From the IMG/VR virus record IMGVR_UViG_3300045988_154953: a stretch of DNA of 64,000 bases; one strand, given 5' to 3'. Position numbers and translations under genes: made by a program. Below, piece by piece: positions 33,507 through 60,386 of this stretch. Below the pieces are notes generated by a model, which did not search any database, was not told the DNA's origin, and worked only from the letters and a program-made list of their open reading frames with translations. The DNA is from a virus. The stretch's first letter is position 1, and each line of letters begins with the position of its first letter.

Positions 33507-33517
33507 TCATTTTAACA
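33500..33517 (+). repeat. 18-nt boundary motif copy R5
   Basis: AAACTAATCATTTTAACA; contains the integrase TAA; TTGATA-17-TATTAT follows. Confidence 0.7.
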
Positions 33518-33604
33518 TTTGAAACTTGATAAAATCCCAAATATAGTGTATTATAAAGGTAAATATCTATATAATTCATTGTTTGGATTTTTAAGGAGGG
33601 AAAT

Positions 33605-34876: not shown

Positions 34877-34877
34877 T

Positions 34878-37027: not shown

Positions 37028-38128
37028 GTGGAAAAGGCATATAAATATAGAATATATCCAAATAAAAAGCAAAAAGAACTTATTCATAAAACTTTTGGAT
37101 GTACTAGATTCGTATATAATACATATCTTGCAAAAAGAATTGAGAAATATGAAAAAGATAAAATCACATTTACTTATATACAATGTGCAAATGATATGAA
37201 AAATCTTAAAACTGAATTAGGATGACTTAAAGAAGTTGATTCTACTGCTCTTCAATCATCCCTTAAAGATTTAGATGTTGCTTATCAAAAATTTTTTAAA
37301 GAGCATGCTGGTTATCCAAAGTTTAAATCAAAGAAAACACATAAATATTCTTACAAGTCAAAATGTACTAATGAAAATATCCAGTATTGTGACAAGCATA
37401 TAAAATTACCTAAGCTTGGAATGGTAAAAACAAGAAACAAATTAATACCACAAGGAAGAATACTTAATGCAACTGTGTCACAAGAATCTAGTGGTAAATA
37501 TTATGTATCACTCTGCTGTACTGATGTAGATATAAAACCATTGGAAAAGACTGGAAATTCAATTGGAATTGATTTAGGAATTAAAGAATTTTGTATTACA
37601 TCAGATGGTGAAATGATAGAAAATCCAAAATATCTCAAGAAGTCTTTAGACAAACTTGCAAAGTTACAAAGAGAGTTGTCTCGAAAATCAAAAGGTGGTT
37701 CAAATTGTAATAAAGCAAGAATTAAGGTTGCAAGACAACACGAGAAAATTACAAATCAGAGAAAAGATTTTTTGCAGAAATTATCTACTAAAATTATTAA
37801 ATACAACGACATTATTTGTATTGAAGATTTACAAGTTAAAAACATGATTAAAAATCATAAACTTGCAAGAAGTATTGCAGATGTATCATGGTCTGAGTTC
37901 GTTAGACAGTTAGAGTACAAAGCTAATTGGTATGGTAAACAGATTGTAAAAGTAGATAAGTTCTTTGCAAGCTCACAGACTTGCAGTGTTTGTGGGTATG
38001 TTAATAAAGAAACAAAGAATCTTGGTATTCGTGAATGGGATTGCCCGCAATGCGGGACACATCATGATCGAGATATAAATGCTGCTATAAATATCTTAAA
38101 TGAAGGATTAAGAGTTTTGGCAGCATAA
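37028..38128 (+). pseudogene. tnpB: tnpB with a single in-frame TGA
   Basis: VEKAYKYRIYPNKKQ start; [42 protein letters not shown] 37223-37225 sits where homologs have Trp (ELG*LKEVDS); ORFs 36914..37225 and 37421..38128 share one frame. Confidence 0.7.
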
Positions 38129-42266: not shown

Positions 42267-44867
42267 ATGAATGGATTAAACAAAAATGAGGTTCTTGAAA
42301 GTAGAAGAACTTATGGAAGTAATAAGCTTCCAGAACCTAAAATGAAGAAATGGTATGATTTTGCTATACAAGCATTAACAGAAAAAATTACATTAATTTT
42401 AATCGCAATTGCAGTTTTACAGTTAGTTCTTGGAATAATTGGAGTTTCGGAAATTTCAACTCCAATTATGATTATTATCGTACTTGCAATCGTAACAATA
42501 CTTGGTATAAAAACAAATCTTGGAGTACAAAGATCAGCTGCCGAATTACGAGCGAGAACAGCAACCAGATATTGTGATGTAATTCGTAATGGAGAACTTC
42601 AAACAATAAATAAAGATGAACTAGTAGTTGGTGATCTTGTATGTGTGAGAATGGGACAAGAAATATTTGCAGATGGTTATTTGATTGAAGGTAAAATTTC
42701 AGTAAATAACGCTGCTATTAATGGTGAAACAAAAGAATGTAAGAAAACACCAATTGAAGGATACAAACATATAAAAACAACATCTACAGATGCTTATACA
42801 AATCAAAACTGTTTATTCGCAGGAACTACAGTTATGGCCGGTGAAGGTAAAATGATTGTTACAGATGTTGGTGTTAATACTATAAATGGTGATACACTTG
42901 TTAAAATGCAGACTCTTGAAGCACCTAAAACAGCTCTTGATATTGCACTTGATAATTTATGTGATTTTATCTCAAAATGGGGTACAATTGCAGCATTTGT
43001 AGCATTTGTTATTCTCATGATAACTAGTGTCATGCAAGTTGGTTTTGTGGAATATTTTAGTGGTGATATTCTTGATATTATTCATAAAATTGCATTGAAT
43101 TTTTCTGTAGCAGTAACAATTATTGTAGCTGCTGTACCAGAGGGTCTTCCAATGATTGTCAAGCTTGTTACAAAACAGAATGTTAATACAATGGAAAAAT
43201 TTAATATTCTTGCAAAAAATCCTGGAAAGATTCCAGAACTTGCTTATGTTGATATCATTTGCACAGATAAAACTGGTACATTAACAACAGGAATTATGAC
43301 ACCAAAGAAAATCATTGATGGATATGGAAATGAAGTTGATCAGAAATCAATTCTTTGGAGTAATATTAAAGATAATATTTGTTTAAATAATAGTGCTGCG
43401 TTTGATTCAGATGATAATATTACAGGCGGGAATTCAATTGACAGAGCACTTCTTGGACTGGTTTCTTCGGAACAATATAATGAAATCATTAACAGATATT
43501 CTGTTAAATTAAAACAGGTATTTAGTAGTGAAAATAAGTATTCTGCATTTACATGTTCTGATGGAGTTACATATTATAAAGGTGCTCCAGAAAAACTTAT
43601 TGACTCATGTACATCAGTTTTAAATTCTGGAGTAGAAATATTTTCTGATAACAACAAAAAGAAATTATATGAACATATTAAGGAAATGACAGAAAAGTCA
43701 ATGAGATGTATTGCTTTAACAATGAGTAATGAAGATTTGGTTGAAAATCAGCTTCCAAATAATATGACGTTTCTTGGTGTTATTGGAGTAGTAGATCCTG
43801 TAAGAGATGAAGTACCTGATGCTGTTAAAACAGCTCATGAAGCGGGTATACAGGTAATTGAAATTACAGGTGATTGTCTTGAAACAGCGAAAGCAGTTGC
43901 TGCGGAATGTGGAATTTACAAAAACGGTGATCTTGCCATTACAAATGATGAGTTTGAAAAAATGTCTGATGATGAAGTTAAATTAATCATTCCTAGATTG
44001 AGAGTTATTTCAAGATGTTCACCAAATACAAAATTAAGACTTGTAACTATTGCTCAAGAAGTAGGAAAATCAGTTGCCATGACAGGTGATGGAGTTAATG
44101 ATTCACCAGCATTAAAGAAAGCAGACGTTGGTTTTGGAATGCAAAGCGGATCTGATGTAGCAAAAGAAGCATCAGACATTATATTGACAGATGATAATTT
44201 TGCAAGTGTTGTAAAAGCAGTCGAACTTGGCAGAACATTCATGCACAATATTATGATGTTCCTTGAGTTTCAGCTCCCTATTAATATTTCACTTTTAATT
44301 TTGAGCGTAATTTATCCTATCATTGCGACAGGTGCATTACTTGCTTCTGTTCAAATTCTGATAATTAATATTATCATGGATTCTTTGAATTCATTATCAT
44401 TTGGTGGTGAGCCACCGAAAGAAGAATATATGCTAGAGAAACCTATTAAAAAAGGATCTGGACTTTTTATTAGAGGAGCAAAGAAACGAATTGCTGTTAG
44501 TACGATCACGTTTATTGTTTTATATGCGATTATTACATTTACTCCAATTAAGAATATGTTTTCGTCAGAAACAGAAGCTATGACCGCAAGATTTGCATTA
44601 CTTTGTTTTATGGCTGTGTTCAATGGGTTTAATATCCGTACAGAACATATGAATTTATTTAAAGGAATCGGAAAGAATAAGTTGTTTTTATATATTGCAA
44701 TTGGAATTTTTGTAATGACGATTGTTTTATGTAATGTTGTAGGATCATTCATTAAAGTGACTCAGTTGGATTCAATACATTGGTTAACAATTATTGCATT
44801 ATCATTTATTGTTATTCCAGTTGATCTTATCAGAAAGGTAATCGACCGTAAAACTAAGGAGGCATAA
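42267..44867 (+). CDS. P-type cation-transporting ATPase (type II, Ca2+-ATPase-like)
   Basis: ICTDKTGTLTTG phosphorylation site, ITGD, MTGDGVNDSPALKKADVG hinge, N- and C-terminal TM bundles. Confidence 0.85.
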   Translation: MNGLNKNEVLESRRTYGSNKLPEPKMKKWYDFAIQALTEKITLILIAIAVLQLVLGIIGVSEISTPIMIIIVLAIVTILGIKTNLGVQRSAAELRARTATRYCDVIRNGELQTINKDELVVGDLVCVRMGQEIFADGYLIEGKISVNNAAINGETKECKKTPIEGYKHIKTTSTDAYTNQNCLFAGTTVMAGEGKMIVTDVGVNTINGDTLVKMQTLEAPKTALDIALDNLCDFISKWGTIAAFVAFVILMITSVMQVGFVEYFSGDILDIIHKIALNFSVAVTIIVAAVPEGLPMIVKLVTKQNVNTMEKFNILAKNPGKIPELAYVDIICTDKTGTLTTGIMTPKKIIDGYGNEVDQKSILWSNIKDNICLNNSAAFDSDDNITGGNSIDRALLGLVSSEQYNEIINRYSVKLKQVFSSENKYSAFTCSDGVTYYKGAPEKLIDSCTSVLNSGVEIFSDNNKKKLYEHIKEMTEKSMRCIALTMSNEDLVENQLPNNMTFLGVIGVVDPVRDEVPDAVKTAHEAGIQVIEITGDCLETAKAVAAECGIYKNGDLAITNDEFEKMSDDEVKLIIPRLRVISRCSPNTKLRLVTIAQEVGKSVAMTGDGVNDSPALKKADVGFGMQSGSDVAKEASDIILTDDNFASVVKAVELGRTFMHNIMMFLEFQLPINISLLILSVIYPIIATGALLASVQILIINIIMDSLNSLSFGGEPPKEEYMLEKPIKKGSGLFIRGAKKRIAVSTITFIVLYAIITFTPIKNMFSSETEAMTARFALLCFMAVFNGFNIRTEHMNLFKGIGKNKLFLYIAIGIFVMTIVLCNVVGSFIKVTQLDSIHWLTIIALSFIVIPVDLIRKVIDRKTKEA

Positions 44868-44868
44868 A

Positions 44869-45645
44869 ATGGGATTATTTGGTAAATTATTCAAAGGGAA
44901 CAAAGTTGATACGAAAGAAAATGAAGCTATACTAAAAAATAGCACAGTTAGTCAAAACGTGATTGACATGTCTAAGTCATCAGAAAACTTAAATAAAGTT
45001 CTGATCAATATGTCTAAAACCGGAAAAATTGATATGACAAAACATGTTGCACGAGTTGCACTTGCTATGGATTATTCTGGCAGTATGTATAATTTGTATG
45101 ACAATGGATCTGTACAGAATGTTATCACAAGACTTCTTCCTATCGCATTGAAATTCGATGATAATGGTGAACTTGAAGCTTGGTTGTTTTCTAATGGTAA
45201 AGAAAGACTTGCTGCAGTAACAACTGAAAATTATAAAAACTATGTAAAAAAAGTAATGATGAAGTCAGGAATGAGAATGGGCGGTACAAATTATGCGCCT
45301 GTATTGGAAGATATGGTGATGTATTATAAAGATATTGAACCAAGCACTGTTCCAGCATTTATCATTTTTATTACAGACGGAGAAAATTTCGACACCGATG
45401 AAACGAATAGAATTATAAAAGAGTTATCAAACTATAATATTTTTATTCAATTTATTGGTATTGGTAATGAAGATTTTAAATACCTTAAATCCTTAGATAA
45501 CATGAAAGGTAGAAAACATGATAATACAGGGTTTACAGCTGTAGAGGATATGAACAAAATGACAGACGAAGAGTTGTACACAGAAATACTTAGACAGTAT
45601 AGTGCTTGGTATGAACGTAGTAAAGGAGTAAATAAATATGAGTAA
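44869..45645 (+). CDS. vWA domain protein of the TerF-C-terminal/TerY type
   Basis: MIDAS LAMDYSGSM, FITDGE; directly upstream of the TerD gene. Confidence 0.6.
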   Translation: MGLFGKLFKGNKVDTKENEAILKNSTVSQNVIDMSKSSENLNKVLINMSKTGKIDMTKHVARVALAMDYSGSMYNLYDNGSVQNVITRLLPIALKFDDNGELEAWLFSNGKERLAAVTTENYKNYVKKVMMKSGMRMGGTNYAPVLEDMVMYYKDIEPSTVPAFIIFITDGENFDTDETNRIIKELSNYNIFIQFIGIGNEDFKYLKSLDNMKGRKHDNTGFTAVEDMNKMTDEELYTEILRQYSAWYERSKGVNKYE

Positions 45646-46276
45646 TGTAATTAATATGAGTAAGAATCAGAAAATTAATATGACTAAAGATAATGGTGAG
45701 GCAATTAAGAATTTCTTCATTGGTGTAAATTGGGATCAAAATAGATATGCTGGAGAAGCAGATATTGATTTTGATATCAATGGTTTCTTAACAAATTCTG
45801 ACAGAAAAGTAATATACCCAAAAGATATTGTTAATTATAATACATATAATAGCAACGATTATCCATGGGTTGAATATTCCGGTGATAATTTAACAGGTGA
45901 TAATTCTATAGGTATTACATTTGATGGAAAGCATTATGATGAGTATTTTATTGTACACGCTGATTTATTTCCAAATGATAGAACAGATTTTACTATTTGC
46001 TTAACAATTTATAGAGCGGTTCAAAGATTGCAGAATTTTGGTATGATAAGCAATGCTTCAATGATGATTTGTGATTATGATGATCCAAGTGATAAAAAAT
46101 GGGAGTTTAACCTTTCTGAAGATGAAAAATTTGAAAATTTAAATGCTGTAGAAATAGGAAGACTTTATCGTTACGGTAACGGATTTAAATTTCAAGCACT
46201 TGGATCAGGATATGTCGGTGGAATGACAGAGCTGTTCAAAAACTTTGGATTAGATATTGATGAAGGTAGGGATTGA
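45638..46276 (+). CDS. terD: TerD-family (Ca-binding stress) protein
   Basis: INMSKNQKINMTKD...FIGVNWD...ADIDFDINGFL follows the TerD beta-sandwich pattern; overlaps the upstream gene by 8 nt. Confidence 0.6.
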   Translation: MSNVINMSKNQKINMTKDNGEAIKNFFIGVNWDQNRYAGEADIDFDINGFLTNSDRKVIYPKDIVNYNTYNSNDYPWVEYSGDNLTGDNSIGITFDGKHYDEYFIVHADLFPNDRTDFTICLTIYRAVQRLQNFGMISNASMMICDYDDPSDKKWEFNLSEDEKFENLNAVEIGRLYRYGNGFKFQALGSGYVGGMTELFKNFGLDIDEGRD

Positions 46277-46279
46277 TAG

Positions 46280-47011
46280 GTGGCTGCAATTATAATTGTT
46301 ATTACCATTATTATAGTTGGTGTATTATTTTTCACAAAGACAGGCAAAAGATTGAGACTTAGAGCGTCAGGCACAGCAGAAGAAATGATAACAAAAGATG
46401 CTGCAACACCAAATGGAGCTAAAGCACACTATAATGCCGTTATTTCAAAAAAAGAAGAAGAATATCAGAACGTAAACAAATTTTATACTGAAACGCTTGG
46501 AAACATTAAATTCTATGAAACACAATTGCGTTCATTGCAAAAAGAAAATATGCAGTTAAACCTTAATATTAATAATTGTGTTGAGAAAAACGATGATAAT
46601 GGTGCTAAAGTATATTTAGGTCGTCAACAAGAAGTAAATGATAAGATTGATATTATCAAAAATACTTTAGTTGAATTACGAAGAAATTCTGAGCTTCAAA
46701 AGGAAAATTTAGATACATTATATGAAAATATTAATAATTTAAAGTCCGAAAAGGAAACTTCAGTTTTGACTCTTGAAGCAGCTGAGATAACAAAATCATT
46801 AAAATCCGCTCCTGGTGTTTATTCGCAAGAAGAAGATAAAATGCTTGAAAAAGTACGCGATGGAGTAAAGAAAGCTAAGAAAGAAGCAGATGGCGTTAGT
46901 ATCGCTTATGAAAATTCAATGGATGTTCAACAGAAACGTCTTGATAAGAAAATGAAAGATGACGAAGTTAATAGAAAGCTTAAACAACTAAAAGATGCTA
47001 AGAAAAAATAA
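46280..47011 (+). CDS. membrane-anchored PspA/IM30-like coiled-coil protein
   Basis: N-terminal TM helix, then long heptad-rich region with a VEKNDDNGAKVYLGRQQE segment like PspA 'AL..G.EDLAR.AL'; GTG start. Confidence 0.45.
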   Translation: MAAIIIVITIIIVGVLFFTKTGKRLRLRASGTAEEMITKDAATPNGAKAHYNAVISKKEEEYQNVNKFYTETLGNIKFYETQLRSLQKENMQLNLNINNCVEKNDDNGAKVYLGRQQEVNDKIDIIKNTLVELRRNSELQKENLDTLYENINNLKSEKETSVLTLEAAEITKSLKSAPGVYSQEEDKMLEKVRDGVKKAKKEADGVSIAYENSMDVQQKRLDKKMKDDEVNRKLKQLKDAKKK

Positions 47012-47027
47012 ACTAATCAATTTAACA
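47010..47027 (+). repeat. 18-nt boundary motif copy R11
   Basis: AAACTAATCAATTTAACA; overlaps the upstream TAA. Confidence 0.75.
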
Positions 47028-47034
47028 AAAAATA

Positions 47035-47066
47035 TTGACAGAAAATAATATATATGATATTATAAT
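47035..47066 (+). promoter_or_regulatory. strong sigmaA-type promoter of the RNA array
   Basis: TTGACA (47035-47040), 17 nt, TATTAT (47058-47063); an overlapping TATAAT at 47061-47066. Confidence 0.65.
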
Positions 47067-47096
47067 CATGTCAGCAAGGATAGTTTTTGTAAAATT

Positions 47097-47114
47097 AAAC
47101 TAATCAATATAATT
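47097..47114 (+). repeat. 18-nt boundary motif copy R12
   Basis: AAACTAATCAATATAATT; followed by the hairpin CAAATGG/CCATTTG. Confidence 0.8.
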
Positions 47115-47144
47115 TCCAAATGGTTTAAAATTTCCATTTGTTGA

Positions 47145-47232
47145 AAGAATCTGGTGTACGGAGCACGATAAATTGTTTTATTTAATTATAAAATAATTTG
47201 TAAGAAATAAGTTCAATTCTTATTGATTCTTC
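47145..47232 (+). ncRNA. tRNA-like RNA T0 (long 12-bp hairpin in place of the anticodon arm)
   Basis: acceptor AAGAATC/GATTCTT, D arm TG-GTGT-ACGGA-GCAC, T arm ATAAG-TTCAATT-CTTAT, central AAATTGTTTTAT-TTAATT-ATAAAATAATTT. Confidence 0.45.
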
Positions 47233-47354
47233 TTTGGCTTGCTGAAGCCAATCTCATACTTTTCATTCCATATCTTCTTTATAAGCTCTGATCCAGTTTT
47301 GAAGAATACATTGGAAGATGTTCACTTACTCATCTATAAAAAAGTAAGTAATAT

Positions 47355-47437
47355 AGGAGTGTGGTGAAATTGGATAGACACCCCAGATTTTGATTCTGGT
47401 GTCGCAAGACGTGTGGGTTCGAGTCCCACCACTCCCG
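47355..47437 (+). tRNA. class II (long variable arm) tRNA, apparent anticodon UUG
   Basis: acceptor AGGAGTG/CACTCCC (A1:C72 mismatch), 3-bp D stem GTG/CAC with GG loop, AC arm CCAGA-TTTTGAT-TCTGG, variable arm TGTCGCAAGACGT, T arm GTGGG-TTCGAGT-CCCAC, G73; no encoded CCA. Confidence 0.7.
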
Positions 47438-47636
47438 CTATGAACAAACTCCGAAGTACAAGGATAGTAGTTCAGAATGGATCCATAAAACAATTAAAAC
47501 ATCAAAAATACGCTGTTTTATTTCTTTATATTTAAATCTCGGTTTGGAGTTTGTAAGAAACAGTCTTTAGGTTACGTTAATATCTAGAAAACTTACCGGA
47601 GTTCGGCACTCTGGAGTGGATGTCTACCACTCAAGT

Positions 47637-47706
47637 TGCACTGCTAATGGATTAGCTGCTAAGTAGTCATTGGCCATGCAGAAAGGTTCGATTCCTTTCA
47701 GTGCAA
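47637..47706 (+). ncRNA. tRNA-like RNA T2 (irregular D/anticodon region)
   Basis: acceptor TGCACTG/CAGTGCA and T arm AAAGG-TTCGATT-CCTTT are perfect. The best anticodon arm is GCTAA-GTAGTCA-TTGGC (AGU, C37), which is non-standard. Confidence 0.4.
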
Positions 47707-47963
47707 TTAAATTCTTTATTTCAGAGAAGTGAATAATCAGCATTAGGCTTAACACAAATGATAAGCATAAACTTGTTGCCAAGTGATTCTTGTAAAAAGA
47801 TTATAGAGTAAACTATTAAAAATCCTGCAAATAATCTCGTAGATCAGAGATTATCAGATATCTAGTCAATAAAAGGCGTTCACGACATCTGACAGAGAAT
47901 ATTAATTATTATGAAATGTATAAAATTAATGCGGATCATTTGCTTAGAATCATGATTCAGGTT

Positions 47964-48026
47964 TGTTCATTGGTGTAAAGGTGCATATCAGAAATGATGG
48001 TTCTGGTTCGACTCCAGAATGAACAA
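47964..48026 (+). ncRNA. tRNA-like RNA T3, only 63 nt, no pairable anticodon stem
   Basis: acceptor TGTTCAT/ATGAACA, D arm TG-GTGT-AAAGGT-GCAT, T arm TCTGG-TTCGACT-CCAGA; only 15 nt between the D and T arms. Confidence 0.45.
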
Positions 48027-48126
48027 TTATCTCATAAGTAGAAATGAGATGTGAGGACGCTATCCAAAATATAAGAAATAGTAAGCTTATGGATTGCTTG
48101 TACAAATATGCTGAAAATCCACACTT

Positions 48127-48200
48127 AGGAAATTAGCTCAGTTGGTGAGAGCGGCGGCCTTATAAGCCGTGTGTGCTGGGTTCAAGTCCCAGATTTCCTA
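48127..48200 (+). tRNA. tRNA-Ile (anticodon UAU)
   Basis: AGGAAAT-TA-GCTC-AGTTGGTGA-GAGC-G-GCGGC-CTTATAA-GCCGT-GTGTG-CTGGG-TTCAAGT-CCCAG-ATTTCCT-A; anticodon 48161-48163; no encoded CCA. Confidence 0.85.
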
Positions 48201-48387
48201 TTCAATATAAAATAAGTATAAATGAACCATATAAAATATTCATATGTCATTCACTCCTGTTTTTACATACAATCTTTTTGGTTCATTAAATTCTATTTTG
48301 TATTTAGGCGATTTCTGCAATTCAAAGAAATTATAAAGTTATAATTAGACTTAAAATCTAATCGATAAAATTATATCGTCTAGTAAT

Positions 48388-48456
48388 GGCTTCATGGCGT
48401 AAAGGTTAGCGCAATAATCTAGTAATGAGGATCTGGTTCGAATCCAGATGAAGCCA
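48388..48456 (+). ncRNA. tRNA-like RNA T5, 69 nt, no pairable anticodon stem
   Basis: acceptor GGCTTCA/TGAAGCC, D arm TG-GCGT-AAAGGTTA-GCGC, T arm TCTGG-TTCGAAT-CCAGA. The centre AATAATCTAGTAATGAGGA cannot form a 5-bp stem; paralog of T3. Confidence 0.45.
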
Positions 48457-48504
48457 GCAGTATTTATTACTGTAATTCTTTTATATACCCTCCAATACAA
48501 CAGA

Positions 48505-48558
48505 TAGACACTAACAGCAATTTTTACATATGGTATTAAAAATATTTATGGTGTCTAG
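48505..48558 (+). ncRNA. ACAGCAA-module RNA S1 (stand-alone)
   Basis: TAGACAC-TA-ACAGCAA-[TTTTTACATA tgg TATTAAAAA hairpin]-TATTTATG-GTGTCTA-G. Confidence 0.6.
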
Positions 48559-48564
48559 AATATG

Positions 48565-48682
48565 GAAGACGTAGGGAAGTGGCCAAACCCAACAAAGAAT
48601 AGTGGTTAGCTACTTAATCGCTTACAGCAAAGTTAATTGTAAAACAGGCAAGTTTTCGTGAGTTCGAATCTCACCGTCTTCC
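48565..48682 (+). ncRNA. tRNA body T6 (class II-like) with the ACAGCAA module in the anticodon position
   Basis: acceptor GAAGACG/CGTCTTC, D GGG-AAGTGGCCAAA-CCC, ACAA...TTGT flanks 41 nt containing CTT-ACAGCAA, variable arm AAAAC-AGGCAA-GTTTT, T arm GTGAG-TTCGAAT-CTCAC. Confidence 0.55.
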
Positions 48683-48688
48683 AAACCT

Positions 48689-48811
48689 CGTCAGATAGTT
48701 TCAATTGGTAAAACACTGCTTAAATCAAATGTGATTAGTTAATTAATCACTAACAGCAATATTCTTATGATGGGCCTGGCAGAACTATAGGTTCGAATCC
48801 TATTCTGGCGA
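48689..48811 (+). ncRNA. tRNA body T7 with a 57-nt insert replacing the anticodon loop
   Basis: CGTCAGA-TA-GTTT-CAATTGGTA-AAAC-A-CTGCT[57 nt: ...GTGATTA-gttaat-TAATCAC-TA-ACAGCAA...]GGCAG-AACT-ATAGG-TTCGAAT-CCTAT-TCTGGCG-A. Confidence 0.6.
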
Positions 48812-48813
48812 TT

Positions 48814-48871
48814 TAGACGGATACAGCAATTTAATGGATAAGACTTTTAATCTTAATACCAAGCCGTCTAG
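48814..48871 (+). ncRNA. ACAGCAA-module RNA S2 (stand-alone)
   Basis: TAGACGG-AT-ACAGCAA-[34 nt with a TAAGA/TCTTA hairpin]-CCGTCTA-G; starts 2 nt after T7. Confidence 0.6.
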
Positions 48872-48877
48872 TATATG

Positions 48878-48992
48878 AGGAATATAGCTCAGTTGGTAGA
48901 GCATCGGACAATACAAAAAAGAGTCTAGTTATAGACTTGAACAGCAAATTATAAAACTCTGACTGTCGTTGGTTCGAATCCAACTATTCCTC
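48878..48992 (+). ncRNA. tRNA body T8 with a 49-nt insert replacing the anticodon loop
   Basis: AGGAATA-TA-GCTC-AGTTGGTA-GAGC-A-TCGGA[49 nt: ...GAGTCTA-gtta-TAGACTT-GA-ACAGCAA...]TCTGA-CTGTC-GTTGG-TTCGAAT-CCAAC-TATTCCT-C. Confidence 0.6.
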
Positions 48993-48994
48993 AT

Positions 48995-49060
48995 TAGGTG
49001 CAATTACAGCAAAAAGAAAAGCGTATAATTTGGGATTATAATAGCAAAAACTGCACCTAG
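48995..49060 (+). ncRNA. ACAGCAA-module RNA S3 (stand-alone)
   Basis: TAGGTGCA-ATT-ACAGCAA-[TATAAT ttggg ATTATA hairpin]-TGCACCTA-G; starts 2 nt after T8. Confidence 0.6.
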
Positions 49061-49066
49061 TTTGTC

Positions 49067-49193
49067 AAGTGGGTAGCTCAGTGGTAGAGCACGATAATAA
49101 GATAATGTGTCGAGTACTTTAGTGACACTTACAGCAATTTTTCTTTTTTGCATTTTAAGCACGATGTCGTAGGTTCGAGTCCTGCCCCACTTG
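49067..49193 (+). ncRNA. tRNA body T9 with the ACAGCAA module inserted between the D arm and the variable loop
   Basis: AAGTGGG-TA-GCTC-AGTGGTA-GAGC...GTGTC-(12)-GACAC-TT-ACAGCAA...ATGTC-GTAGG-TTCGAGT-CCTGC-CCCACTT-G. 8-nt direct repeat AGCACGAT at 49088 and 49158; a possible weak UUU arm TTTGC-ATTTTAA-GCACG. Confidence 0.55.
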
Positions 49194-49196
49194 TTT

Positions 49197-49269
49197 TAGA
49201 TGATAACAGCAATTCACGAAAATATAAACACATTTATTAAACAAGTATAAAAGTTATAAAATCATCTAG
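49197..49269 (+). ncRNA. ACAGCAA-module RNA S4 (stand-alone)
   Basis: TAGATGA-TA-ACAGCAA-[49 nt]-TCATCTA-G; starts 3 nt after T9. Confidence 0.6.
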
Positions 49270-49276
49270 CGATTAT

Positions 49277-49335
49277 AAGACAGTTACAGCAACACTATTA
49301 TATAAAAGACTTAAAATTTAAAACAAAACTGTCTT
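49277..49335 (+). ncRNA. ACAGCAA-module RNA S5 (stand-alone)
   Basis: AAGACAGTT-ACAGCAA-[34 nt]-AACTGTCTT (9-bp perfect closing helix). Confidence 0.55.
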
Positions 49336-49341
49336 GGAATC

Positions 49342-49359
49342 AAAGTAACTTTACAACAA
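49342..49359 (+). promoter_or_regulatory. module-like leader element of the vWA gene
   Basis: AAAG-TAA-CTTT mini-hairpin followed directly by ACAACAA; about 10 nt upstream of the AAAGGAGA RBS. Confidence 0.35.
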
Positions 49360-49384
49360 TTTTGGTTCAAAGGAGAATAAATTT

Positions 49385-50938
49385 ATGTTTATGAACGATT
49401 TAAAAGAAACGTTAAATGAAGATTTTAATGAATCTATCACCGAAAATAATGCCAATGGTTATAGAACAACAGGAAAAGAACTGTTGGATATGAACTTTAT
49501 GGTATCTTCGATGAGAAAAATGAGTGATAAACAAATTATTGATAAATTTGTAAAAGCTTTCTATGAAAATAAAATGTATGCAATTAAATGGTTGTATTAC
49601 GTAAGGGATGCTCGTGAGGGAGTTGGCGAGAGAAGATTGTTCAGAGTTTGTATGGAATATCTTGCAAAGAATCATACAGACATTGCAAAAGCCATGATCC
49701 CTTTGACAGCTGAATATGGTCGTTGGGATGACTTATTATCTTTACTTGATACAGAATTAGCTGACAATGTTATTAAATTATTTGGTGATCAGCTTACTGA
49801 AGATATGAAAAACTTGAAATCAAATAAACCTATTTCATTATTAGGTAAATGGATGCCTAGCTGCAATGCATCATCTAGAAAAACTAGAAAACTGGGTGTA
49901 GAGATTGCGGAAAAGCTTGGTATTTCTGAAAGGAAGTATAGAAAGATGCTTTCTGCCATCAGAAAATATCTTGACGTTGTAGAAGTTAAAATGGCTGCAG
50001 GACAATGGGATCAGATTGATTATTCAAAAGTTTCCTCAAGAGCTAATTTAATTTATAATAACGCTTTTCTGAGACATGATGAAGAACGTAGACGTAAATA
50101 CCTTGAAAGCTTGCAAAAAGGCGAAACAAAGATTAATGCCGGTGTATTATTTCCACATGATATTGTACATAAGTATTATAACTTAGATTATTGGCGTATC
50201 AATATTAAAAATTATGATACAGCACTTGAAGAAATGTGGAAGGCATTACCAGATTATGTGAATGGTGCTGGTAATACAATTTGTGTTGCTGATGGGTCTG
50301 GAAGTATGTACACAAGAGTAGGTGGCACAAATGTAATGGCGATTGAAGTAGCAAATGCTTTAGCAATTTATTTTTCCGAAAGATGCTCTGGACAGTTTAA
50401 GGATAATTATATAACCTTTAGTATGAATCCGAAACTTGTTAGTTTTAGTAGAGCTAAATCTTTAAAAGAGAAAATAGAAATTGCTTTAAAACACACCGAA
50501 TGTGCTAATACGAATATTGAAGCCGTATTTGATTTGATTCTTAAAACAGCAATTAGAAAAAATATGAAACAGGATGAATTACCGCAGAATATATTGATTT
50601 TATCGGACATGGAGTTCGATAGTTGTGTTGAATACAATAGAAGTAGCAGATGTAATCTCAATAGACCTACCAAAAGATTATTTAAAGTATTTGAAGAAAG
50701 ATATGCTGAACATGGCTATAAACTTCCAAGATTAGTATTTTGGAATATTTGTAGTAGAACTGGTACAATTCCTGTAAAAGAAAATGATTTAGGTGTAGCA
50801 CTTGTAAGTGGTTTCAGTCCGGCAGTTGTTAAGATGGTACTTAGTAATAGTACAGATCCACTTGAATGTTTACTTGAACAGTTGAATTCAGAAAGATATC
50901 AGCCGGTAGAAGATGCAATCAAGGATTTAGTTGCTTAA
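49385..50938 (+). CDS. large helical N-domain + C-terminal vWA/MIDAS protein (DUF2828-like; Ro60/TROVE-like layout)
   Basis: 517 aa; about 290 aa of predicted helical repeats (YGRWDDLLSLL, GKWMPS, LFPHDIV), then MIDAS CVADGSGSM and LILSDMEFD. Family name is from memory, not searched. Confidence 0.6.
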   Translation: MFMNDLKETLNEDFNESITENNANGYRTTGKELLDMNFMVSSMRKMSDKQIIDKFVKAFYENKMYAIKWLYYVRDAREGVGERRLFRVCMEYLAKNHTDIAKAMIPLTAEYGRWDDLLSLLDTELADNVIKLFGDQLTEDMKNLKSNKPISLLGKWMPSCNASSRKTRKLGVEIAEKLGISERKYRKMLSAIRKYLDVVEVKMAAGQWDQIDYSKVSSRANLIYNNAFLRHDEERRRKYLESLQKGETKINAGVLFPHDIVHKYYNLDYWRINIKNYDTALEEMWKALPDYVNGAGNTICVADGSGSMYTRVGGTNVMAIEVANALAIYFSERCSGQFKDNYITFSMNPKLVSFSRAKSLKEKIEIALKHTECANTNIEAVFDLILKTAIRKNMKQDELPQNILILSDMEFDSCVEYNRSSRCNLNRPTKRLFKVFEERYAEHGYKLPRLVFWNICSRTGTIPVKENDLGVALVSGFSPAVVKMVLSNSTDPLECLLEQLNSERYQPVEDAIKDLVA

Positions 50939-50944
50939 AAAGAA

Positions 50945-51010
50945 TAGATACGCACAGCAATTAAGAAGTTTGGTTTAGGTTCACATCCTTTTTCAAATAT
51001 TTGTATCTAG
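50945..51010 (+). ncRNA. ACAGCAA-module RNA S7 (stand-alone, 3' of the vWA gene)
   Basis: TAGATAC-GC-ACAGCAA-[42 nt incl. T-loop-like AGG-TTCACAT-CCT]-GTATCTA-G. Confidence 0.55.
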
Positions 51011-51035
51011 ATAAAAAATAGAAACGTTAAAAGTT

Positions 51036-51064
51036 ATGCGTCAGTAAAGTTGCTGACGCATTTT
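51036..51064 (+). terminator. rho-independent terminator closing the RNA/vWA operon
   Basis: ATGCGTCAG-taaagttg-CTGACGCAT followed by TTT. Confidence 0.7.
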
Positions 51065-51081
51065 ACAAATAGGAGAAGTAA

Positions 51082-51372
51082 ATGGTTTTTTGTAGTGATG
51101 ATAGAAAAGAATTAATTGTGACATGTAAATGTGGATGCCAGGATTCAATTCATGTGAAAATAGATAAAGAAAGTCCAGACTATTATTGTTTGGTTACTTA
51201 TATGAATGGTAATTGGAGTAGAGATCAAGGAGATAAGATTCATAGAACAATTGGAAGAAAACTTAAGAAAATCTGGAGTATTATTCGCAATAAAGATTAC
51301 TATTATTCAGATATTATTATGAGAAAGTCAGATTTCAAGATATTAAAAAATTATATTAATGAGATTGAGTAG
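51082..51372 (+). CDS. hypothetical Cys-rich protein
   Basis: TAGGAGAAG RBS; CKCGC motif. Confidence 0.55.
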   Translation: MVFCSDDRKELIVTCKCGCQDSIHVKIDKESPDYYCLVTYMNGNWSRDQGDKIHRTIGRKLKKIWSIIRNKDYYYSDIIMRKSDFKILKNYINEIE

Positions 51373-52377
51373 ATGCACATGTTACAAATTTTAGAATTGT
51401 TTGGTGGTATTGGAAGTCCAAGAGTAGCACTTCGCAATTTAGGTATTCCAGTAAAAGCCATTGACTATGTTGAAATTGATGCAAAGGCTGTAAGAAGTTA
51501 TAATGCAATGTTCGCATCGGAACTTCCTTATAAAACACAATCAGTTATTGGTTATAATTTACAACCAGATATCCTTATACATGGGAGTCCATGTCAGACC
51601 TTCAGTATAGCTGGTCATCAAGGTGGATTAACAAAAGAAAACGGTCGTATAAATAGAGGTGCCGGGGCTGATGAAGGATCTGGTTCGCAGTCATCTCTTA
51701 TGTGGGAAACAGTTAATATTATAAAACAAATGGGTGAATGGAAACCTAAAATTGTCATTTGGGAAAATGTAAAGAATATAACAAGCAAATATATGATACA
51801 TAATTTTGTTAAGTATCTTAACGTAATGGAAGAAATGGGATATACAAATTCATATGAATGTCTAGATGCAAGAGATTTTGGAATACCACAAGCGAGAGAA
51901 AGGGTATTTACAATTTCCTGTTTAAATGGCACAAAATTTAATTTTAAAACTTTGAAACATACTAAAATGAGACCTTTACAGAATTTTTTAGAAGATAATG
52001 TTTCTGAAAGATATTTAGTAACGCAGCCAAGTATTCTTTCTACCATCGGCAATACAAAAACGATCAAGAGAGCAACCGTAATTAAAGATTATGTATATAC
52101 AATTACAGAACGTCAAGATAGATGCCCGGCACAAATTATTGATGTTGGAAATGGCAAGTATAGATTTTTAACAGAATTAGAATGTTGGAGATTATTTGGA
52201 TATTCAGATGATGACTATTATGCTGCGGAAGCTGCTAATCCAAAACGTAAGAATGCGATTGTGAATAGAACTTTGTATCGACAAGCTGGTAATAGCATAG
52301 TGGTTCCAATATTTGAATCTATATTTGAACAGTGTTTAGATATATTAAATTATAATAAAGCAACAGTAGAGGAATAA
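51373..52377 (+). CDS. DNA (cytosine-5)-methyltransferase
   Basis: motif I LFGGIGS, IV GSPCQTFS, VI WENVKN, VIII QARERVF, X GNSIVVP. Confidence 0.85.
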   Translation: MHMLQILELFGGIGSPRVALRNLGIPVKAIDYVEIDAKAVRSYNAMFASELPYKTQSVIGYNLQPDILIHGSPCQTFSIAGHQGGLTKENGRINRGAGADEGSGSQSSLMWETVNIIKQMGEWKPKIVIWENVKNITSKYMIHNFVKYLNVMEEMGYTNSYECLDARDFGIPQARERVFTISCLNGTKFNFKTLKHTKMRPLQNFLEDNVSERYLVTQPSILSTIGNTKTIKRATVIKDYVYTITERQDRCPAQIIDVGNGKYRFLTELECWRLFGYSDDDYYAAEAANPKRKNAIVNRTLYRQAGNSIVVPIFESIFEQCLDILNYNKATVEE

Positions 52378-57985: not shown

Positions 57986-58354
57986 TTGAGTTGTAAGTAT
58001 CCAGAAAATAGTAGAAGTTATATGTTTTGTATTGGATGTAAAGAAGCAGATTCTTGTTCAAGTTCAACATTCAACATTCCAATGCCAGATAATGTAAAGC
58101 CACCAAAAAATTCTATTCCAACAGCTGCTGAAGCAAAAAATGTAACTGAGTTGGCTATAGAGAATTCTATCACCAAACAATTAGAAGAATTATCATTTAA
58201 AATAAATACAGCAATTCATAAAGGAAAATATGACATTACAAACGATGGTATTTTGGATCTAGAAGTAAAAAGAAGATTAGAAGATCTCGGTTATAATATT
58301 ACAATTGGGAATCAATATAACGAATCATATTATACGATTAGTTGGAAAGGATGA
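57986..58354 (+). CDS. hypothetical protein
   Basis: TTG start behind GAGGTGAG. Confidence 0.55.
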   Translation: MSCKYPENSRSYMFCIGCKEADSCSSSTFNIPMPDNVKPPKNSIPTAAEAKNVTELAIENSITKQLEELSFKINTAIHKGKYDITNDGILDLEVKRRLEDLGYNITIGNQYNESYYTISWKG

Positions 58355-59054: not shown

Positions 59055-60386
59055 ATGGAGGCTATGAACTGGAACCCGGTATTAAGCAAGTTTGTAGAAA
59101 TTAAAAATGAATTCAAAAAGAAACTTGGATATATAACTTACTATTATACTGAAGGTTACACAAACGAATCTCAAACTTGTTTAGAAAGATGGGTAGAATA
59201 TTTAAATGGTATTAAGCCGTTTAATCAATATCAAGAGTATGCAGATTTGCTTTCATGTCTTGAATTAAATCAATATGGAGATTTTCTTCTTTTAAGATAT
59301 GGAAGATATAGTAACATTTATGATGGTGAAATTGAAAAGTCTGGTGAGGATTTTTGGGATAGATATGAGGGTTTTTACAGAGAATGTAGAAGTATAGTAA
59401 TTGATGTAAAAAATGATTGTATTGTACTTTGCCCATTTCGCAAATTTTTTAATCTAAATGAGTTAGAAGAAACTAGTGAAGAAAACATTAATAAAAGAAT
59501 TGAGAACGCATCACTTATAGAATTTTCAAATAAATTAGATGGATCGATGCAAACAGCTACATGGTACGATGGTAAAATTATTATGGCTGGAAGTCAAGCA
59601 ATAAATCCAGAAAAATCGTGGAGATTACAGGATGGATACAGAATGATTCAAGCGTTGCCTGGATATGAGCAAATGCTTAAAATGCATCCTAACTTTACAT
59701 TTATATTTGAATATATCTCTTTGGCCGATGCTCATGTAGTAAAATATAAAAAAGAGCAAGAAGGTCTATATCTTATTGGTATTAGAGATAATTTAACAGG
59801 ACATGAACTTAGTTATCGTAAGGTGATAGATATTGCTAATCATTTTAATATTCCAACAACGGTATTATTTGATAAAACACTTGGACAAATCTTAAATGAA
59901 TTAGATAACAAAAGTTCAGAAGAAGCAGAAGGCTTTGTTATTAACATTGATGAATATAAAGTTAAAGTGAAATATAATGATTATGTACATATTCATAAAG
60001 CACTGTCTAAACTCTCTTCAATAAATCTTATTATTCGTTCTATTGCAGATGATCAGTACGATGATCTCTTATCTAAACTTCCAGCAGCTTATCATGATAG
60101 TGTAAAAAAAGTAGCTGCTATCGTATTCAGATATATAAAAGATACAGAACGAACTTCTAACGAATATTTTCAGCAAGCTCCAAAAACTAGTCAAAAAGAA
60201 TTCATGATCTGGATTGATAGAAATGTTCCTAAAAAGTTCCGTGGATTTTGTAGGGAATTGTATTTTGGAAACGAAATTAATGTAATTAAATTCAATCAAT
60301 CTGGAGATCCAAAATATTTAAAATTAAATCAAATGGGAGTAAATGATTACTCTACATTATTCACACAGGAGGAAGAAAATGAGTAA
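59055..60386 (+). CDS. ATP-dependent RNA ligase (Rnl1/T4 RnlA-like nucleotidyltransferase)
   Basis: motif I FSNKLDGSM (KxDG), motif IV EGFVINI, motif V KVKVKYNDY; 443 aa. Confidence 0.65.
   Translation: MEAMNWNPVLSKFVEIKNEFKKKLGYITYYYTEGYTNESQTCLERWVEYLNGIKPFNQYQEYADLLSCLELNQYGDFLLLRYGRYSNIYDGEIEKSGEDFWDRYEGFYRECRSIVIDVKNDCIVLCPFRKFFNLNELEETSEENINKRIENASLIEFSNKLDGSMQTATWYDGKIIMAGSQAINPEKSWRLQDGYRMIQALPGYEQMLKMHPNFTFIFEYISLADAHVVKYKKEQEGLYLIGIRDNLTGHELSYRKVIDIANHFNIPTTVLFDKTLGQILNELDNKSSEEAEGFVINIDEYKVKVKYNDYVHIHKALSKLSSINLIIRSIADDQYDDLLSKLPAAYHDSVKKVAAIVFRYIKDTERTSNEYFQQAPKTSQKEFMIWIDRNVPKKFRGFCRELYFGNEINVIKFNQSGDPKYLKLNQMGVNDYSTLFTQEEENE

What the first reader, a model, noticed from the sequence alone, without database searches (positions are those of the whole stretch)
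47012..51064. One-promoter RNA operon: a tRNA-punctuated array of an apparently new 'helix + ACAGCAA' RNA module
Seen directly:
- 47012-49384 is a 2.37-kb stretch with no credible ORF in a genome that otherwise wastes almost no space.
- It starts at a consensus-like promoter (TTGACA-17-TATTAT, 47035). The first convincing terminator is at 51036-51064.
- The heptamer ACAGCAA occurs at 48514, 48624, 48753, 48823, 48941, 49006, 49131, 49206, 49286 and 50954, with a variant ACAACAA at 49353. It is always 0-3 nt 3' of one strand of a helix.
- Six stand-alone copies have a helix strand (TAGACAC, TAGACGG, TAGGTGCA, TAGATGA, AAGACAGTT, TAGATAC) that pairs perfectly with a complement 30-50 nt downstream. 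Five of the six end in ...CTAG. Helix sequences differ between copies but remain complementary. Interiors are unique and each holds its own small hairpin.
- Spacing is regular. A stand-alone unit starts 2-3 nt after the discriminator base of the preceding tRNA body, and the next tRNA body starts 6 nt after its terminal G.
- Related stem-closed units without the heptamer lie upstream: 47444-47554, 48222-48286 (shares TTTTTACATA with S1) and 48346-48383 (TAGAC...GTCTAG).

Inference: RNase P/Z processing of the flanking tRNA bodies would release a set of about 55-75-nt structured RNAs that share a protein- or nuclease-recognition platform. I do not recognise the module as any named RNA family.
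Basis: partly seen in the sequence, partly recalled or inferred. Interest (0 to 1): 0.92.

Follow-up and report, generated by a model that had tools for sequence, protein, structure and literature searches.

The report
Partner RNAs of phage Ro60-like protein
This gut phage's 2.4-kb non-coding operon encodes ten copies of a small RNA module (a helix followed by ACAGCAA, often carrying a tRNA anticodon-arm look-alike) that sits beside a Ro60-like RNA-binding protein gene in phages of many bacterial phyla and matches no described RNA family I could find.

Summary
One strong promoter (47035) heads 2.37 kb without credible ORFs. The stretch holds ten tRNA-like bodies and ten 'helix + ACAGCAA' modules: six stand-alone, four inside tRNA bodies.

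The module is a real, widespread RNA. A sequence-only model found 106 copies in related loci, all on the gene strand. Their closing helix covaries strongly (84.8% paired against 65% shuffled).

The interior usually mimics a tRNA anticodon stem-loop (Lys, Asn, Ser, Cys, Pro and others). The tRNA-embedded copies are circular permutations of the same unit.

The downstream gene (49385-50938, DUF2828 plus vWA) models as a Ro60/TROVE ring. In 160 homologous loci the kilobase upstream holds 429 sense and 6 antisense heptamers. Nine of ten cultured phages checked also carry the module next to this gene, including FelixO1-like, Listeria P100, mycobacteriophage, Campylobacter CP81 and KVP40-like phages. 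Phage T5, which shows no DUF2828 in the 86 kb checked, has none.

Rfam 15 has no matching family.

Best reading: these are Y-RNA-like ligands of a divergent Ro60 protein, released from a tRNA-array transcript. They probably act in conflicts over tRNA damage. Binding and function are inferred, not shown.

The parts
47035..47063 (+). Sigma-70-type promoter of the RNA operon (TTGACA-17-TATTAT, with TG before the -10)
   Evidence: Best site in the scan, 11 of 12 matches. The same sequence is present in relative L003.
47146..47232 (+). tRNA-like body without a module (undetermined anticodon)
   Evidence: ARAGORN calls it tRNA-???. T-loop motif at 47211.
47355..47438 (+). tRNA with a long variable arm (anticodon UUG)
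   Evidence: ARAGORN and Rfam tRNA, 46.6 bits.
47634..47707 (+). tRNA-like body with a non-canonical anticodon region (approximate ends)
   Evidence: T-loop motif at 47686. Acceptor pairing TGCACTG/CAGTGCA read. Not called by Rfam tRNA.
47951..48022 (+). tRNA-like body (approximate ends)
   Evidence: T-loop motif at 48006. Acceptor pairing TGTTCAT/ATGAACA read.
48126..48201 (+). Canonical tRNA-Ile(UAU)
   Evidence: ARAGORN and Rfam tRNA, 68 bits.
48388..48456 (+). tRNA-like body with a degenerate anticodon arm. Its L003 counterpart has ACAGCAA directly after the D stem.
   Evidence: Rfam tRNA 44.8 bits with unpaired anticodon stem. L003 4994.
48503..48559 (+). Stand-alone module S1 (TAGACAC..ACAGCAA..GTGTCTAG)
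   Evidence: Model R1 E 3.5e-7. Helix. MFE fold.
48564..48683 (+). tRNA body A. Its anticodon loop is replaced by hairpin 48601-48622 plus ACAGCAA 48624-48630. It has a long variable arm.
   Evidence: Hairpin. T-loop at 48662. Fold z-score -4.1. By my reading, the anticodon-stem pairing ACAA/TTGT corresponds to ACAAA/TTTGT in L003.
48688..48812 (+). tRNA body B, with hairpin 48731-48750 plus ACAGCAA 48753-48759 in the anticodon-loop position
48812..48872 (+). Stand-alone module S2. Interior 48839-48855 is a perfect anticodon arm, UAAGA-CUUUUAA-UCUUA (Lys UUU look-alike).
   Evidence: Model R1 59.7 bits, E 2e-12. Sequence-only model R2 E 6e-8. MFE fold.
48877..48993 (+). tRNA body C. Its anticodon loop is replaced by hairpin 48921-48938 plus ACAGCAA 48941-48947.
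   Evidence: Rfam tRNA 51.8 bits with a 48-nt insert. The L003 counterpart has a wholly different but still paired hairpin (GGATATT/AATATCC) and, by my reading, a changed but paired anticodon stem.
48995..49059 (+). Stand-alone module S3. Interior 49024-49040 is UAUAA-UUUGGGA-UUAUA (Pro UGG look-alike).
   Evidence: Model R1 E 4.5e-8. Compensatory helix changes against L003 5622.
49067..49194 (+). tRNA body D. Hairpin 49107-49128 plus ACAGCAA 49131-49137 is inserted in the 5' strand of the anticodon stem. The inner stem-loop UGC-AUUUUAA-GCA (49149-49161) is kept.
   Evidence: Rfam tRNA 43 bits with a 68-nt insert. The same layout recurs in many loci.
49195..49270 (+). Stand-alone module S4
   Evidence: Model R1 E 1e-3. 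Helix TTAGATGAT/ATCATCTAG.
49275..49337 (+). Stand-alone module S5, the last unit before the gene's ribosome-binding site
   Evidence: Model R1 E 4e-9. Model R2 E 5e-7.
49385..50938 (+). Gene for a DUF2828 + DUF7788/vWA protein with a Ro60/TROVE-like fold. Proposed protein partner of the modules.
   Evidence: Pfam. AlphaFold model pLDDT 86, pTM 0.84. The top ten Foldseek PDB hits are all Ro60/TROVE, full length.
50943..51011 (+). Stand-alone module S6 in the 3' UTR. Its interior hairpin is T-arm-like (AGG-UUCACAU-CCU).
   Evidence: Model R1 E 3e-4. A counterpart lies after the stop codon in L003 and in other loci.
51036..51064 (+). Hairpin followed by a short T run, the probable end of the operon
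   Evidence: Read. Not called by the terminator scan.

Best explanation
The modules are the cognate small RNAs of the Ro60-like protein encoded at the end of the operon. They are a Y-RNA analogue for a divergent branch of the Ro60 family.

Proposed steps:
- One promoter drives a polycistronic precursor.
- Host RNase P and 3'-end enzymes cut at the tRNA bodies and so free the stand-alone units (inferred).
- The protein ring binds the 7-9-bp helix (consensus AAGRCRC/GYGYCUU) plus the single-stranded ACAGCAA that leaves it (inferred).
- The variable part is displayed. It may be an anticodon stem-loop look-alike, a T-arm, or a whole tRNA body joined at its anticodon arm.
- The copy nearest the start codon may also let the protein regulate its own mRNA.

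The complex most likely works in the phage-host contest over tRNA. It could act as a decoy or tether for enzymes that recognise anticodon arms, or as a platform for tRNA repair. This last step is the most speculative.
For: RNA level:
- The closing helix covaries in an alignment made by a sequence-only model. 84.8% of cells pair against 65% shuffled (0 of 500 shuffles reach it) and 28-51% when partners are slid. Core pairs show 0-2 unpaired cells in about 85, with AU/GC/UA swaps.
- All 106 hits are on the gene strand.

Link to the protein:
- In 160 DUF2828 loci the upstream kilobase holds 429 sense and 6 antisense ACAGCAA (2.84 against 0.04 per kb).
- 137 of 151 loci have a copy within 500 nt upstream or 400 nt downstream.
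- Single-copy loci have only promoter, module, then gene: Fnu1, L002, Vibrio V09, phiN3.
- Nine of ten cultured phages from six host phyla keep the exact heptamer beside the gene.
- T5 has 25 tRNAs and 8 stable RNAs but no DUF2828 in the 86 kb checked, and it has no module.

Protein:
- Its fold matches Ro60 over the full length: TM 0.43-0.61, E 6e-8 to 2.5e-5.
- The MIDAS residues D303, S305 and S307 are invariant.

Parallel with Y RNAs:
- Y RNAs lie beside Ro60 genes on the same strand. They have a terminal stem with a short motif on the 5' strand and a tRNA-like domain (PMC4201824).
- A phage Ro60 binds Y-like RNAs encoded upstream of its gene (PMC12135203).

tRNA mimicry:
- Anticodon-arm-like hairpins follow 39% of heptamers against 6% in shuffles.
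- Their loops copy real tRNA loops, such as CUUUUAA, CUGUUAA, CUGUCAC and UUUGGGA.

Context:
- A T4-type RNA ligase and a PNK-like kinase lie 8 kb downstream.
- RtcB lies near the gene in Listeria P100plus.
- A Ro-like protein, PNK and RNA ligase occur together in mycobacteriophage LeBron (PMC13148394).
Against: - No binding or expression data exist.
- The protein does not match Pfam TROVE, and the RNA lacks the known Ro-binding motif (GGUCCGA / GNCGAA).
- Modules also lie scattered in large canonical tRNA arrays with no DUF2828 within several kb (L235, L284, L215). Adjacency is therefore not obligatory, and I could not check whole genomes.
- Synechococcus phage B3 has the gene but no obvious adjacent module.
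- The decoy or repair role rests only on loop identity and gene neighbourhood.
Confidence: 0.62

Rival explanations
1. The module is only a cis-regulatory leader of the DUF2828 mRNA, such as an autoregulatory operator or a sensor. It is not a free small RNA.
For: - The nearest copy is within 250 nt upstream in 115 of 151 loci.
- In L002 the 3' strand abuts the Shine-Dalgarno sequence.
- In Vibrio V09 the 3' strand contains the start codon.
Against: - Arrays reach 11 copies over 2 kb.
- Some copies lie after the stop codon (window S6; the Staphylococcus phage; Aegeus; heid).
- Some copies are embedded in tRNA bodies.
- Some copies sit in tRNA arrays kilobases from any DUF2828 gene.
Confidence: 0.1
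2. The modules are processing punctuation for a host or phage ribonuclease that matures tRNA-array transcripts, independent of DUF2828.
For: - Units fill gaps between tRNAs, starting 1-3 nt after tRNA 3' ends.
- They occur in canonical arrays without an adjacent DUF2828 gene.
Against: - The same heptamer is kept in phages whose hosts range from Mycobacterium and Listeria to E. coli and Campylobacter. From my own knowledge, these hosts use different endoribonucleases (RNase E versus RNase Y).
- Single copies sit between a promoter and the DUF2828 gene with no tRNA nearby.
- T5's large array lacks them.
Confidence: 0.1
3. The tRNA-embedded copies are a new kind of small intron. An endonuclease would cut them out, and the phage RNA ligase and kinase would rejoin the tRNA. 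The stand-alone copies would be relics.
For: - Four window copies interrupt anticodon arms.
- In tRNA body D, removing the insert would restore a 5-bp stem, CGUGC/GCACG.
- Rnl1 and PNK genes are present.
Against: - No endonuclease candidate was found.
- In three of the four window copies no anticodon loop would remain after removal.
- Only 68 of 182 embedded copies keep an in-register anticodon arm.
- Stand-alone copies are as conserved as embedded ones.
Confidence: 0.07
4. The units are small self-cleaving ribozymes that trim neighbouring tRNA ends, like the HDV-like theta ribozymes of gut phages.
For: They lie right after tRNA 3' ends, they are small, and they have a strictly conserved single-stranded stretch.
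Against: - No ribozyme family matches, even at E <= 10.
- Covariation supports a 5'-3' terminal helix, not the HDV-type nested pseudoknot.
- The interior ranges from 12 nt to a whole T-arm, which is too variable for a catalytic core.
Confidence: 0.04

Closest known systems
Bacterial and phage Y RNAs (YrlA/YrlB, Yrn1, phiLo Yrl1/2) bound by Ro60/Rsr
   Same: - They are small RNAs encoded beside, and on the same strand as, a ring-shaped HEAT-repeat plus vWA protein.
- The 5' and 3' ends form a stem, with a short conserved motif on the 5' side.
- They carry a tRNA-like part.
- They are linked to RNA-repair genes (PMC4201824, PMC12135203).
   Different: - The motif is ACAGCAA rather than GNCGAA/GGUCCGA, and it lies just outside the helix.
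- No Rfam Y RNA model matches.
- The protein belongs to Pfam DUF2828, not TROVE.
- Copies come in arrays of up to 11.
- The tRNA-like part is an anticodon arm, or a whole tRNA joined at the anticodon arm. In YrlA it is a D/T-arm domain with a closed acceptor stem.
Stable RNAs of unknown function in phage T5 and T4 tRNA clusters
   Same: They are non-tRNA small RNAs interspersed with tRNA genes. Some are tRNA-like, and they are co-transcribed and processed with the tRNAs (T5 annotation; T4 from my own knowledge).
   Different: The T5 RNAs contain no ACAGCAA module, and T5 shows no DUF2828 gene in the 86 kb examined.
HDV-like theta ribozymes next to gut-phage tRNAs (my own knowledge: Kienbeck et al. 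2024)
   Same: Small structured RNAs placed directly at the ends of phage tRNAs.
   Different: The fold topology differs and there is no evidence of catalysis. The module also occurs without any tRNA nearby.
Armless mitochondrial tRNAs (my own knowledge)
   Same: An acceptor-like helix plus an anticodon arm, with the D and T arms replaced by short connectors. The distance from the helix to the anticodon arm (about 19 nt) equals that in a tRNA.
   Different: The helix sequence and the connector (ACAGCAA) are conserved regardless of anticodon. That pattern fits a shared protein handle, not amino-acid identity. Nothing suggests aminoacylation.

Membership tests
Y RNA (Ro60-associated ncRNA, including YrlA) | Encoded close to, and on the same strand as, a Ro60-family gene | tested here: met
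   429 sense against 6 antisense copies in the kilobase upstream of 160 loci. The protein is Ro60-like by fold.
Y RNA (Ro60-associated ncRNA, including YrlA) | Stem formed by the 5' and 3' ends | tested here: met
   A 7-9-bp terminal helix with strong covariation.
Y RNA (Ro60-associated ncRNA, including YrlA) | Conserved Ro-binding motif GGUCCGA / GNCGAA(N)G, and a match to a Y RNA covariance model | tested here: not met
   The conserved motif is ACAGCAA. No Y RNA or YrlA family matches at E <= 10 or E <= 1 in four other phages.
Y RNA (Ro60-associated ncRNA, including YrlA) | tRNA-like domain (D and T arms, closed acceptor-like stem) | tested here: inconclusive
   tRNA mimicry is present but built differently: anticodon arms, T-arms, or whole tRNAs with open acceptor stems.
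Y RNA (Ro60-associated ncRNA, including YrlA) | Physical binding to the Ro60 protein | not testable with these tools
   Needs EMSA, RIP or a structure.
Ro60 / TROVE protein | HEAT-repeat ring followed by a vWA domain with a MIDAS motif | tested here: met
   The top ten PDB matches are Ro60, full length. D303-x-S305-x-S307 is invariant in 45 sequences. The VWA_2 match is weak.
Ro60 / TROVE protein | Sequence match to Pfam TROVE or to solved Ro60 chains | tested here: not met
   Pfam reports DUF2828 + DUF7788 only. Sequence and profile searches of the PDB find no Ro60.
Canonical tRNA | Cloverleaf scoring above the Rfam tRNA threshold | tested here: met
   This holds for the bodies at 48878-48992 (51.8 bits) and 49067-49193 (43 bits), but only with 48- and 68-nt inserts skipped. 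Stand-alone units do not match.
Canonical tRNA | Continuous 5-bp anticodon stem with a 7-nt loop | tested here: not met
   In bodies A-C the loop is replaced by the module. In D the stem's 5' strand is split.
tRNA introns (group I, or archaeal bulge-helix-bulge) | Group I catalytic core, or a bulge-helix-bulge motif at the exon junctions | tested here: inconclusive
   No intron family matches, and the inserts are only 48-68 nt. The bulge-helix-bulge geometry was not examined.
HDV-like / theta ribozyme | Nested double pseudoknot in which the 5' end pairs internally (P1) | tested here: not met
   Covariation supports 5'-3' terminal pairing. No HDV-type Rfam match. Cleavage itself is not testable here.

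The most novel reading that the evidence does not exclude
Phages from many lineages deploy arrays of anticodon-stem-loop decoys, each carrying a common handle held by a Ro60-like ring. These decoys would soak up, tether or redirect host enzymes that attack or modify tRNA anticodon loops, such as PrrC/RloC-type, PARIS-type or toxin nucleases. Alternatively they would template repair by phage RNA ligase and kinase. That would be an RNA-based counter-defence sitting inside tRNA gene clusters.
Probability: 0.2. Interest if true: 0.92.

Novelty: new variant of a known kind. Interest (0 to 1): 0.8.

Why it matters
- It gives a candidate RNA partner to a large protein family of unknown function. DUF2828, annotated 'Ro-like RNA-binding protein', matched thousands of metagenomic homologues and 710 cultured phage genomes.
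- It adds a second RNA-recognition solution to the Ro60/Y RNA field.
- It explains part of the non-tRNA sequence in phage tRNA clusters, whose purpose has long been debated.
- The module occurs in tractable phages (FelixO1-like coliphages, Listeria P100/A511 types, mycobacteriophages, Fusobacterium Fnu1), so the hypothesis can be tested directly.
- Several annotated small 'hypothetical protein' ORFs overlap modules and are probably not genes.

Tried and rejected
- Rfam at the curated threshold and at E <= 10 returned only tRNA hits, with nothing at the module sites.
- A literature search for the heptamer returned only primer noise. Searches for DUF2828, Ro-like plus phage, YrlA plus tRNA array, and anticodon decoys found no description of this RNA.
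- Sequence and profile searches of the protein against the PDB found nothing. Only the fold comparison showed Ro60.
- I tested a possible second helix between the U-rich tract after ACAGCAA and the A-rich tract before the 3' strand. Pairing equals the shuffled level, so I rejected it.
- ACAACAA at 49353 as an eleventh module: rejected.
- The heptamer-less 'related units' at 47444-47554, 48222-48286 and 48346-48383: they fold, but the model does not support them and I saw no matching helices in L003.
- A weak model hit at 58197-58256 (E 0.035) lies inside a plausible ORF, so I treat it as chance.
- My first helix-finding control, with a minimum of 6 bp, was too permissive in this AT-rich DNA. 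I replaced it with the covariation test.
- The reverse search from the RNA pattern is diluted by chance matches. It could not settle whether genomes with modules always encode DUF2828.

Full report
**Observation**

The region is as described.
- From 47012 to 49384 there are only five minus-strand ORFs of 50-55 aa.
- The best promoter-like site in 46500-51500 is TTGACA-17-TATTAT at 47035-47063, matching 11 of 12 positions with an upstream TG.
- ACAGCAA occurs 16 times in the 64-kb window against 8.4 expected, and no shuffle of 100 reached 16. Ten copies lie on the + strand at the listed positions.
- Each of the ten follows a helix strand by 0-3 nt. Six have the partner strand 30-60 nt downstream, and four have it just upstream as a hairpin.
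- Ten T-loop motifs (GTTCRANYC) on the + strand between 47211 and 49181 mark ten tRNA-like bodies. Only three to five are called as tRNAs.
- Two of the called tRNAs match only if inserts of 48 and 68 nt in the anticodon arm are skipped.
- Rfam 15 gives nothing else at the curated threshold or at E <= 10.

**The module is a real, conserved RNA**

The gene after the array (49385-50938) has thousands of homologues. I fetched 160 loci from viral contigs and from bacterial genomes, mostly Lachnospiraceae and other Clostridia. I also fetched a 79%-identical relative carrying the same array, L003.

A covariance model built from 39 diverse stand-alone units recovered exactly the six stand-alone units of the window at E <= 1e-3. 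Only one of the six was in the seed.

To avoid circularity I built a second model from sequence alone. It found 106 copies in 100 sources, all on the gene strand. On that alignment:
- The proposed pairs form in 84.8% of cells, against 65.0% after shuffling (0 of 500 shuffles reach it) and 28-51% when partners are slid.
- The seven core pairs of the closing helix have 0-2 unpaired cells out of about 85.
- These pairs switch freely among types, for example 47 AU, 36 GC and 3 UA at one pair.

Counterpart units in the window and L003 also show compensatory changes. One example is GTGCA/TGCAC against GTACATT/AATGTAC.

**Anatomy**

The consensus is 5'-(A)AAGRCRC-NN-ACAGCAA-(U-rich; 8-13 nt)-[5-bp stem, 7-nt loop]-(5-13 nt, A-rich)-GYGYCUU(G)-3'.
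- The inner hairpin has the signature of an anticodon arm (Y32, U33, NNN, R37).
- Its loops copy those of real tRNAs: CUUUUAA (Lys), CUGUUAA (Asn), CUGCUAA (Ser), CUGCAAA (Cys), UUUGGGA (Pro), CUGUCAC (Asp) and CUGAUAA (Ile).
- Such hairpins follow 39% of heptamers, against 6% in shuffled sequence. That count includes T-arm-like loops.
- The helix end and the inner stem are about 19 nt apart, the same as between the acceptor stem and the anticodon stem of a tRNA.
- In some units the interior is a T-arm, or a D-arm, anticodon arm and T-arm together. In minimal versions it is only 12-19 nt.
- The U-rich and A-rich connectors do not covary.
- Minimum-energy folds of the six window units keep ACAGCAA unpaired.

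**The copies inside tRNAs are the same module, circularly permuted**

I defined the embedded class only by a T-loop 22-50 nt downstream of the heptamer.
- The eight bases before the heptamer have the same consensus as in stand-alone units, with C at -5 in 89% and C at -3 in 81%.
- A perfect 7-bp hairpin is present in 89 of 170 sites, against 2 of 170 in shuffles.
- The hairpin reads GYRUCUUG-(four-base loop)-AAAGAYRC. This is the stand-alone 3' strand joined to the 5' strand.
- In window bodies A, B and C the module replaces the anticodon loop.
- In body D, and in the other loci I inspected, it sits in the 5' strand of the anticodon stem between positions 28 and 29. A 3-bp inner stem with a normal 7-nt loop remains. 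I infer this from inspecting individual examples.
- Overall, 68 of 182 embedded copies keep an anticodon arm in the exact tRNA register, against 0-5 in shifted registers.

**The protein**

- Pfam reports DUF2828 plus DUF7788, with a weak vWA match.
- An AlphaFold model built from 45 sequences is confident (pLDDT 86, pTM 0.84).
- Its ten best PDB matches are all Ro60/TROVE proteins from frog, human and Thermus phage phiLo. They align over the full length, with TM 0.43-0.61 and E from 6e-8 to 2.5e-5. After them come only isolated vWA domains.
- The MIDAS residues DxSxS are invariant.
- Annotators already call members 'Ro-like RNA binding protein' or 'RNA-binding protein'.

**Association and breadth**

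- In the 160 loci, the kilobase upstream of the gene holds 429 sense and 6 antisense heptamers (2.84 against 0.04 per kb; background is about 0.1).
- 137 of 151 loci have a copy within 500 nt upstream or 400 nt downstream.
- Loci with one copy show promoter, module, ribosome-binding site, then gene, with no tRNA nearby (Fnu1; L002).
- The protein occurs in 710 cultured phage genomes, usually in or beside the tRNA cluster.
- Nine of ten cultured phages I checked carry helix + ACAGCAA units beside the gene:
  - FelixO1-like coliphage heid
  - Mycobacterium phage Aegeus
  - Listeria phage P100plus
  - Enterococcus phage VRE9_2
  - Campylobacter phage CP81
  - Vibrio phage V09
  - Sinorhizobium phage phiN3
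  - Staphylococcus phage S-CoN_Ph1
  - Fusobacterium phage Fnu1
- Synechococcus phage B3 has the gene but no obvious adjacent unit.
- Negative control: T5, with 25 tRNAs and eight annotated stable RNAs, has no model hit and no heptamer in its RNA genes. It has no DUF2828 in the 86 kb examined.
- Reverse search: looking for AAGACACNNACAGCAA in viral contigs gave 120 stretches. 21 carry DUF2828, always on the same strand. About 25 others carry true modules scattered through large canonical tRNA arrays, with no DUF2828 in the stretch. Adjacency is therefore common but not obligatory, and I could not test co-occurrence across whole genomes.

**Mechanism**

Shown:
- A structured, strand-specific RNA unit with an invariant heptamer.
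- Its persistent placement beside a Ro60-fold protein gene across phyla.
- Its tRNA mimicry.

Inferred:
- The protein binds the helix plus ACAGCAA.
- tRNA-processing enzymes free the units.
- The copy next to the start codon may give autoregulation.

Speculative: a role as a decoy, tether or repair platform for enzymes that act on anticodon loops. Three things favour a tRNA-damage setting:
- Lys UUU and Asn GUU loops are the commonest among module interiors and embedded arms.
- A T4-type RNA ligase and a PNK-like kinase lie at 59055-61269.
- RtcB lies near the gene in P100plus, and a Ro-like protein, PNK and RNA ligase occur together in LeBron.

**Comparison with what is known**

The system works like Ro60 with Y RNAs, including the tRNA-like YrlA class and the phage phiLo Ro60-Yrl pair. 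It is not a member of the described Y RNA families:
- The motif differs.
- The motif is placed differently.
- The topology of the tRNA-like part differs.
- No model matches.

It is not a ribozyme of a known class, nor a known intron type. I therefore rate it a new variant of a known kind. The searchable literature holds no description of it, but subscription journals are not covered.

**Caveats**

- E-values from my models are rough because of the short calibration.
- The loci are biased towards gut Firmicutes phages.
- Many copies are related by descent, so cell counts overstate independent events.
- No expression or binding data are available.

Noticed in passing
window 59055-61269: A T4 Rnl1-type RNA ligase (59055-60386) overlaps a PNK-like AAA_33 kinase (60343-61269). 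This is the classic tRNA anticodon-loop repair pair, 8 kb downstream of the array.
   Followed up: partly
L287 1974-2525 (Listeria phage P100plus): A ROOL-like large RNA (86 bits, E 4e-16, below the Rfam threshold of 99.1) lies in the same tRNA cluster, about 1 kb upstream of the DUF2828 gene.
   Followed up: no
L286 4972-5115; L288 3356-3472; L293 4019-4108: Small annotated 'hypothetical protein' CDSs in Mycobacterium phage Aegeus, Enterococcus phage VRE9_2 and Staphylococcus phage S-CoN_Ph1 overlap ACAGCAA modules. They are probably not protein genes.
   Followed up: partly
window 47071-47077: TCAGCAA lies 8 nt after the -10 element, near the expected transcript start. It is conserved in L003. 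It may be a variant heptamer at the 5' end of the precursor.
   Followed up: no
window 50546-50552: ACAGCAA lies inside the DUF2828 gene and recurs at the same relative position (+1131 to +1181) in about a dozen homologues. It encodes part of a conserved peptide (..KTAI..), so it is probably a coding coincidence.
   Followed up: partly
window 48388-48456 and L003 4970-5045: A tRNA-like body has no anticodon arm. In L003 ACAGCAA follows the D stem directly, and the window copy has lost the heptamer.
   Followed up: partly
window 29502-30596 and 37421-38128: Two TnpB-like genes (OrfB_IS605 + Cas12f1-like TNB), plus RepA_N, two tyrosine recombinases and a DndB-like gene at 31402-35636. The element may be a phage-plasmid. 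The source contig is 207 kb from a human gut metagenome.
   Followed up: no
window 42267-47011: A P-type cation ATPase, a vWA-TerF-like protein, a TerD protein and a weak PspA/IM30 match lie directly upstream of the RNA operon.
   Followed up: no
L295 30284-41566 (phage T5): T5's record annotates eight stable RNAs of unknown function, some tRNA-like, among its tRNA genes. None contains the module.
   Followed up: yes
window 58197-58256: A weak model hit (E 0.035) with ACAGCAA at 58208 lies about 800 nt upstream of the RNA ligase gene but inside ORF 57986-58354. It is probably chance.
   Followed up: yes
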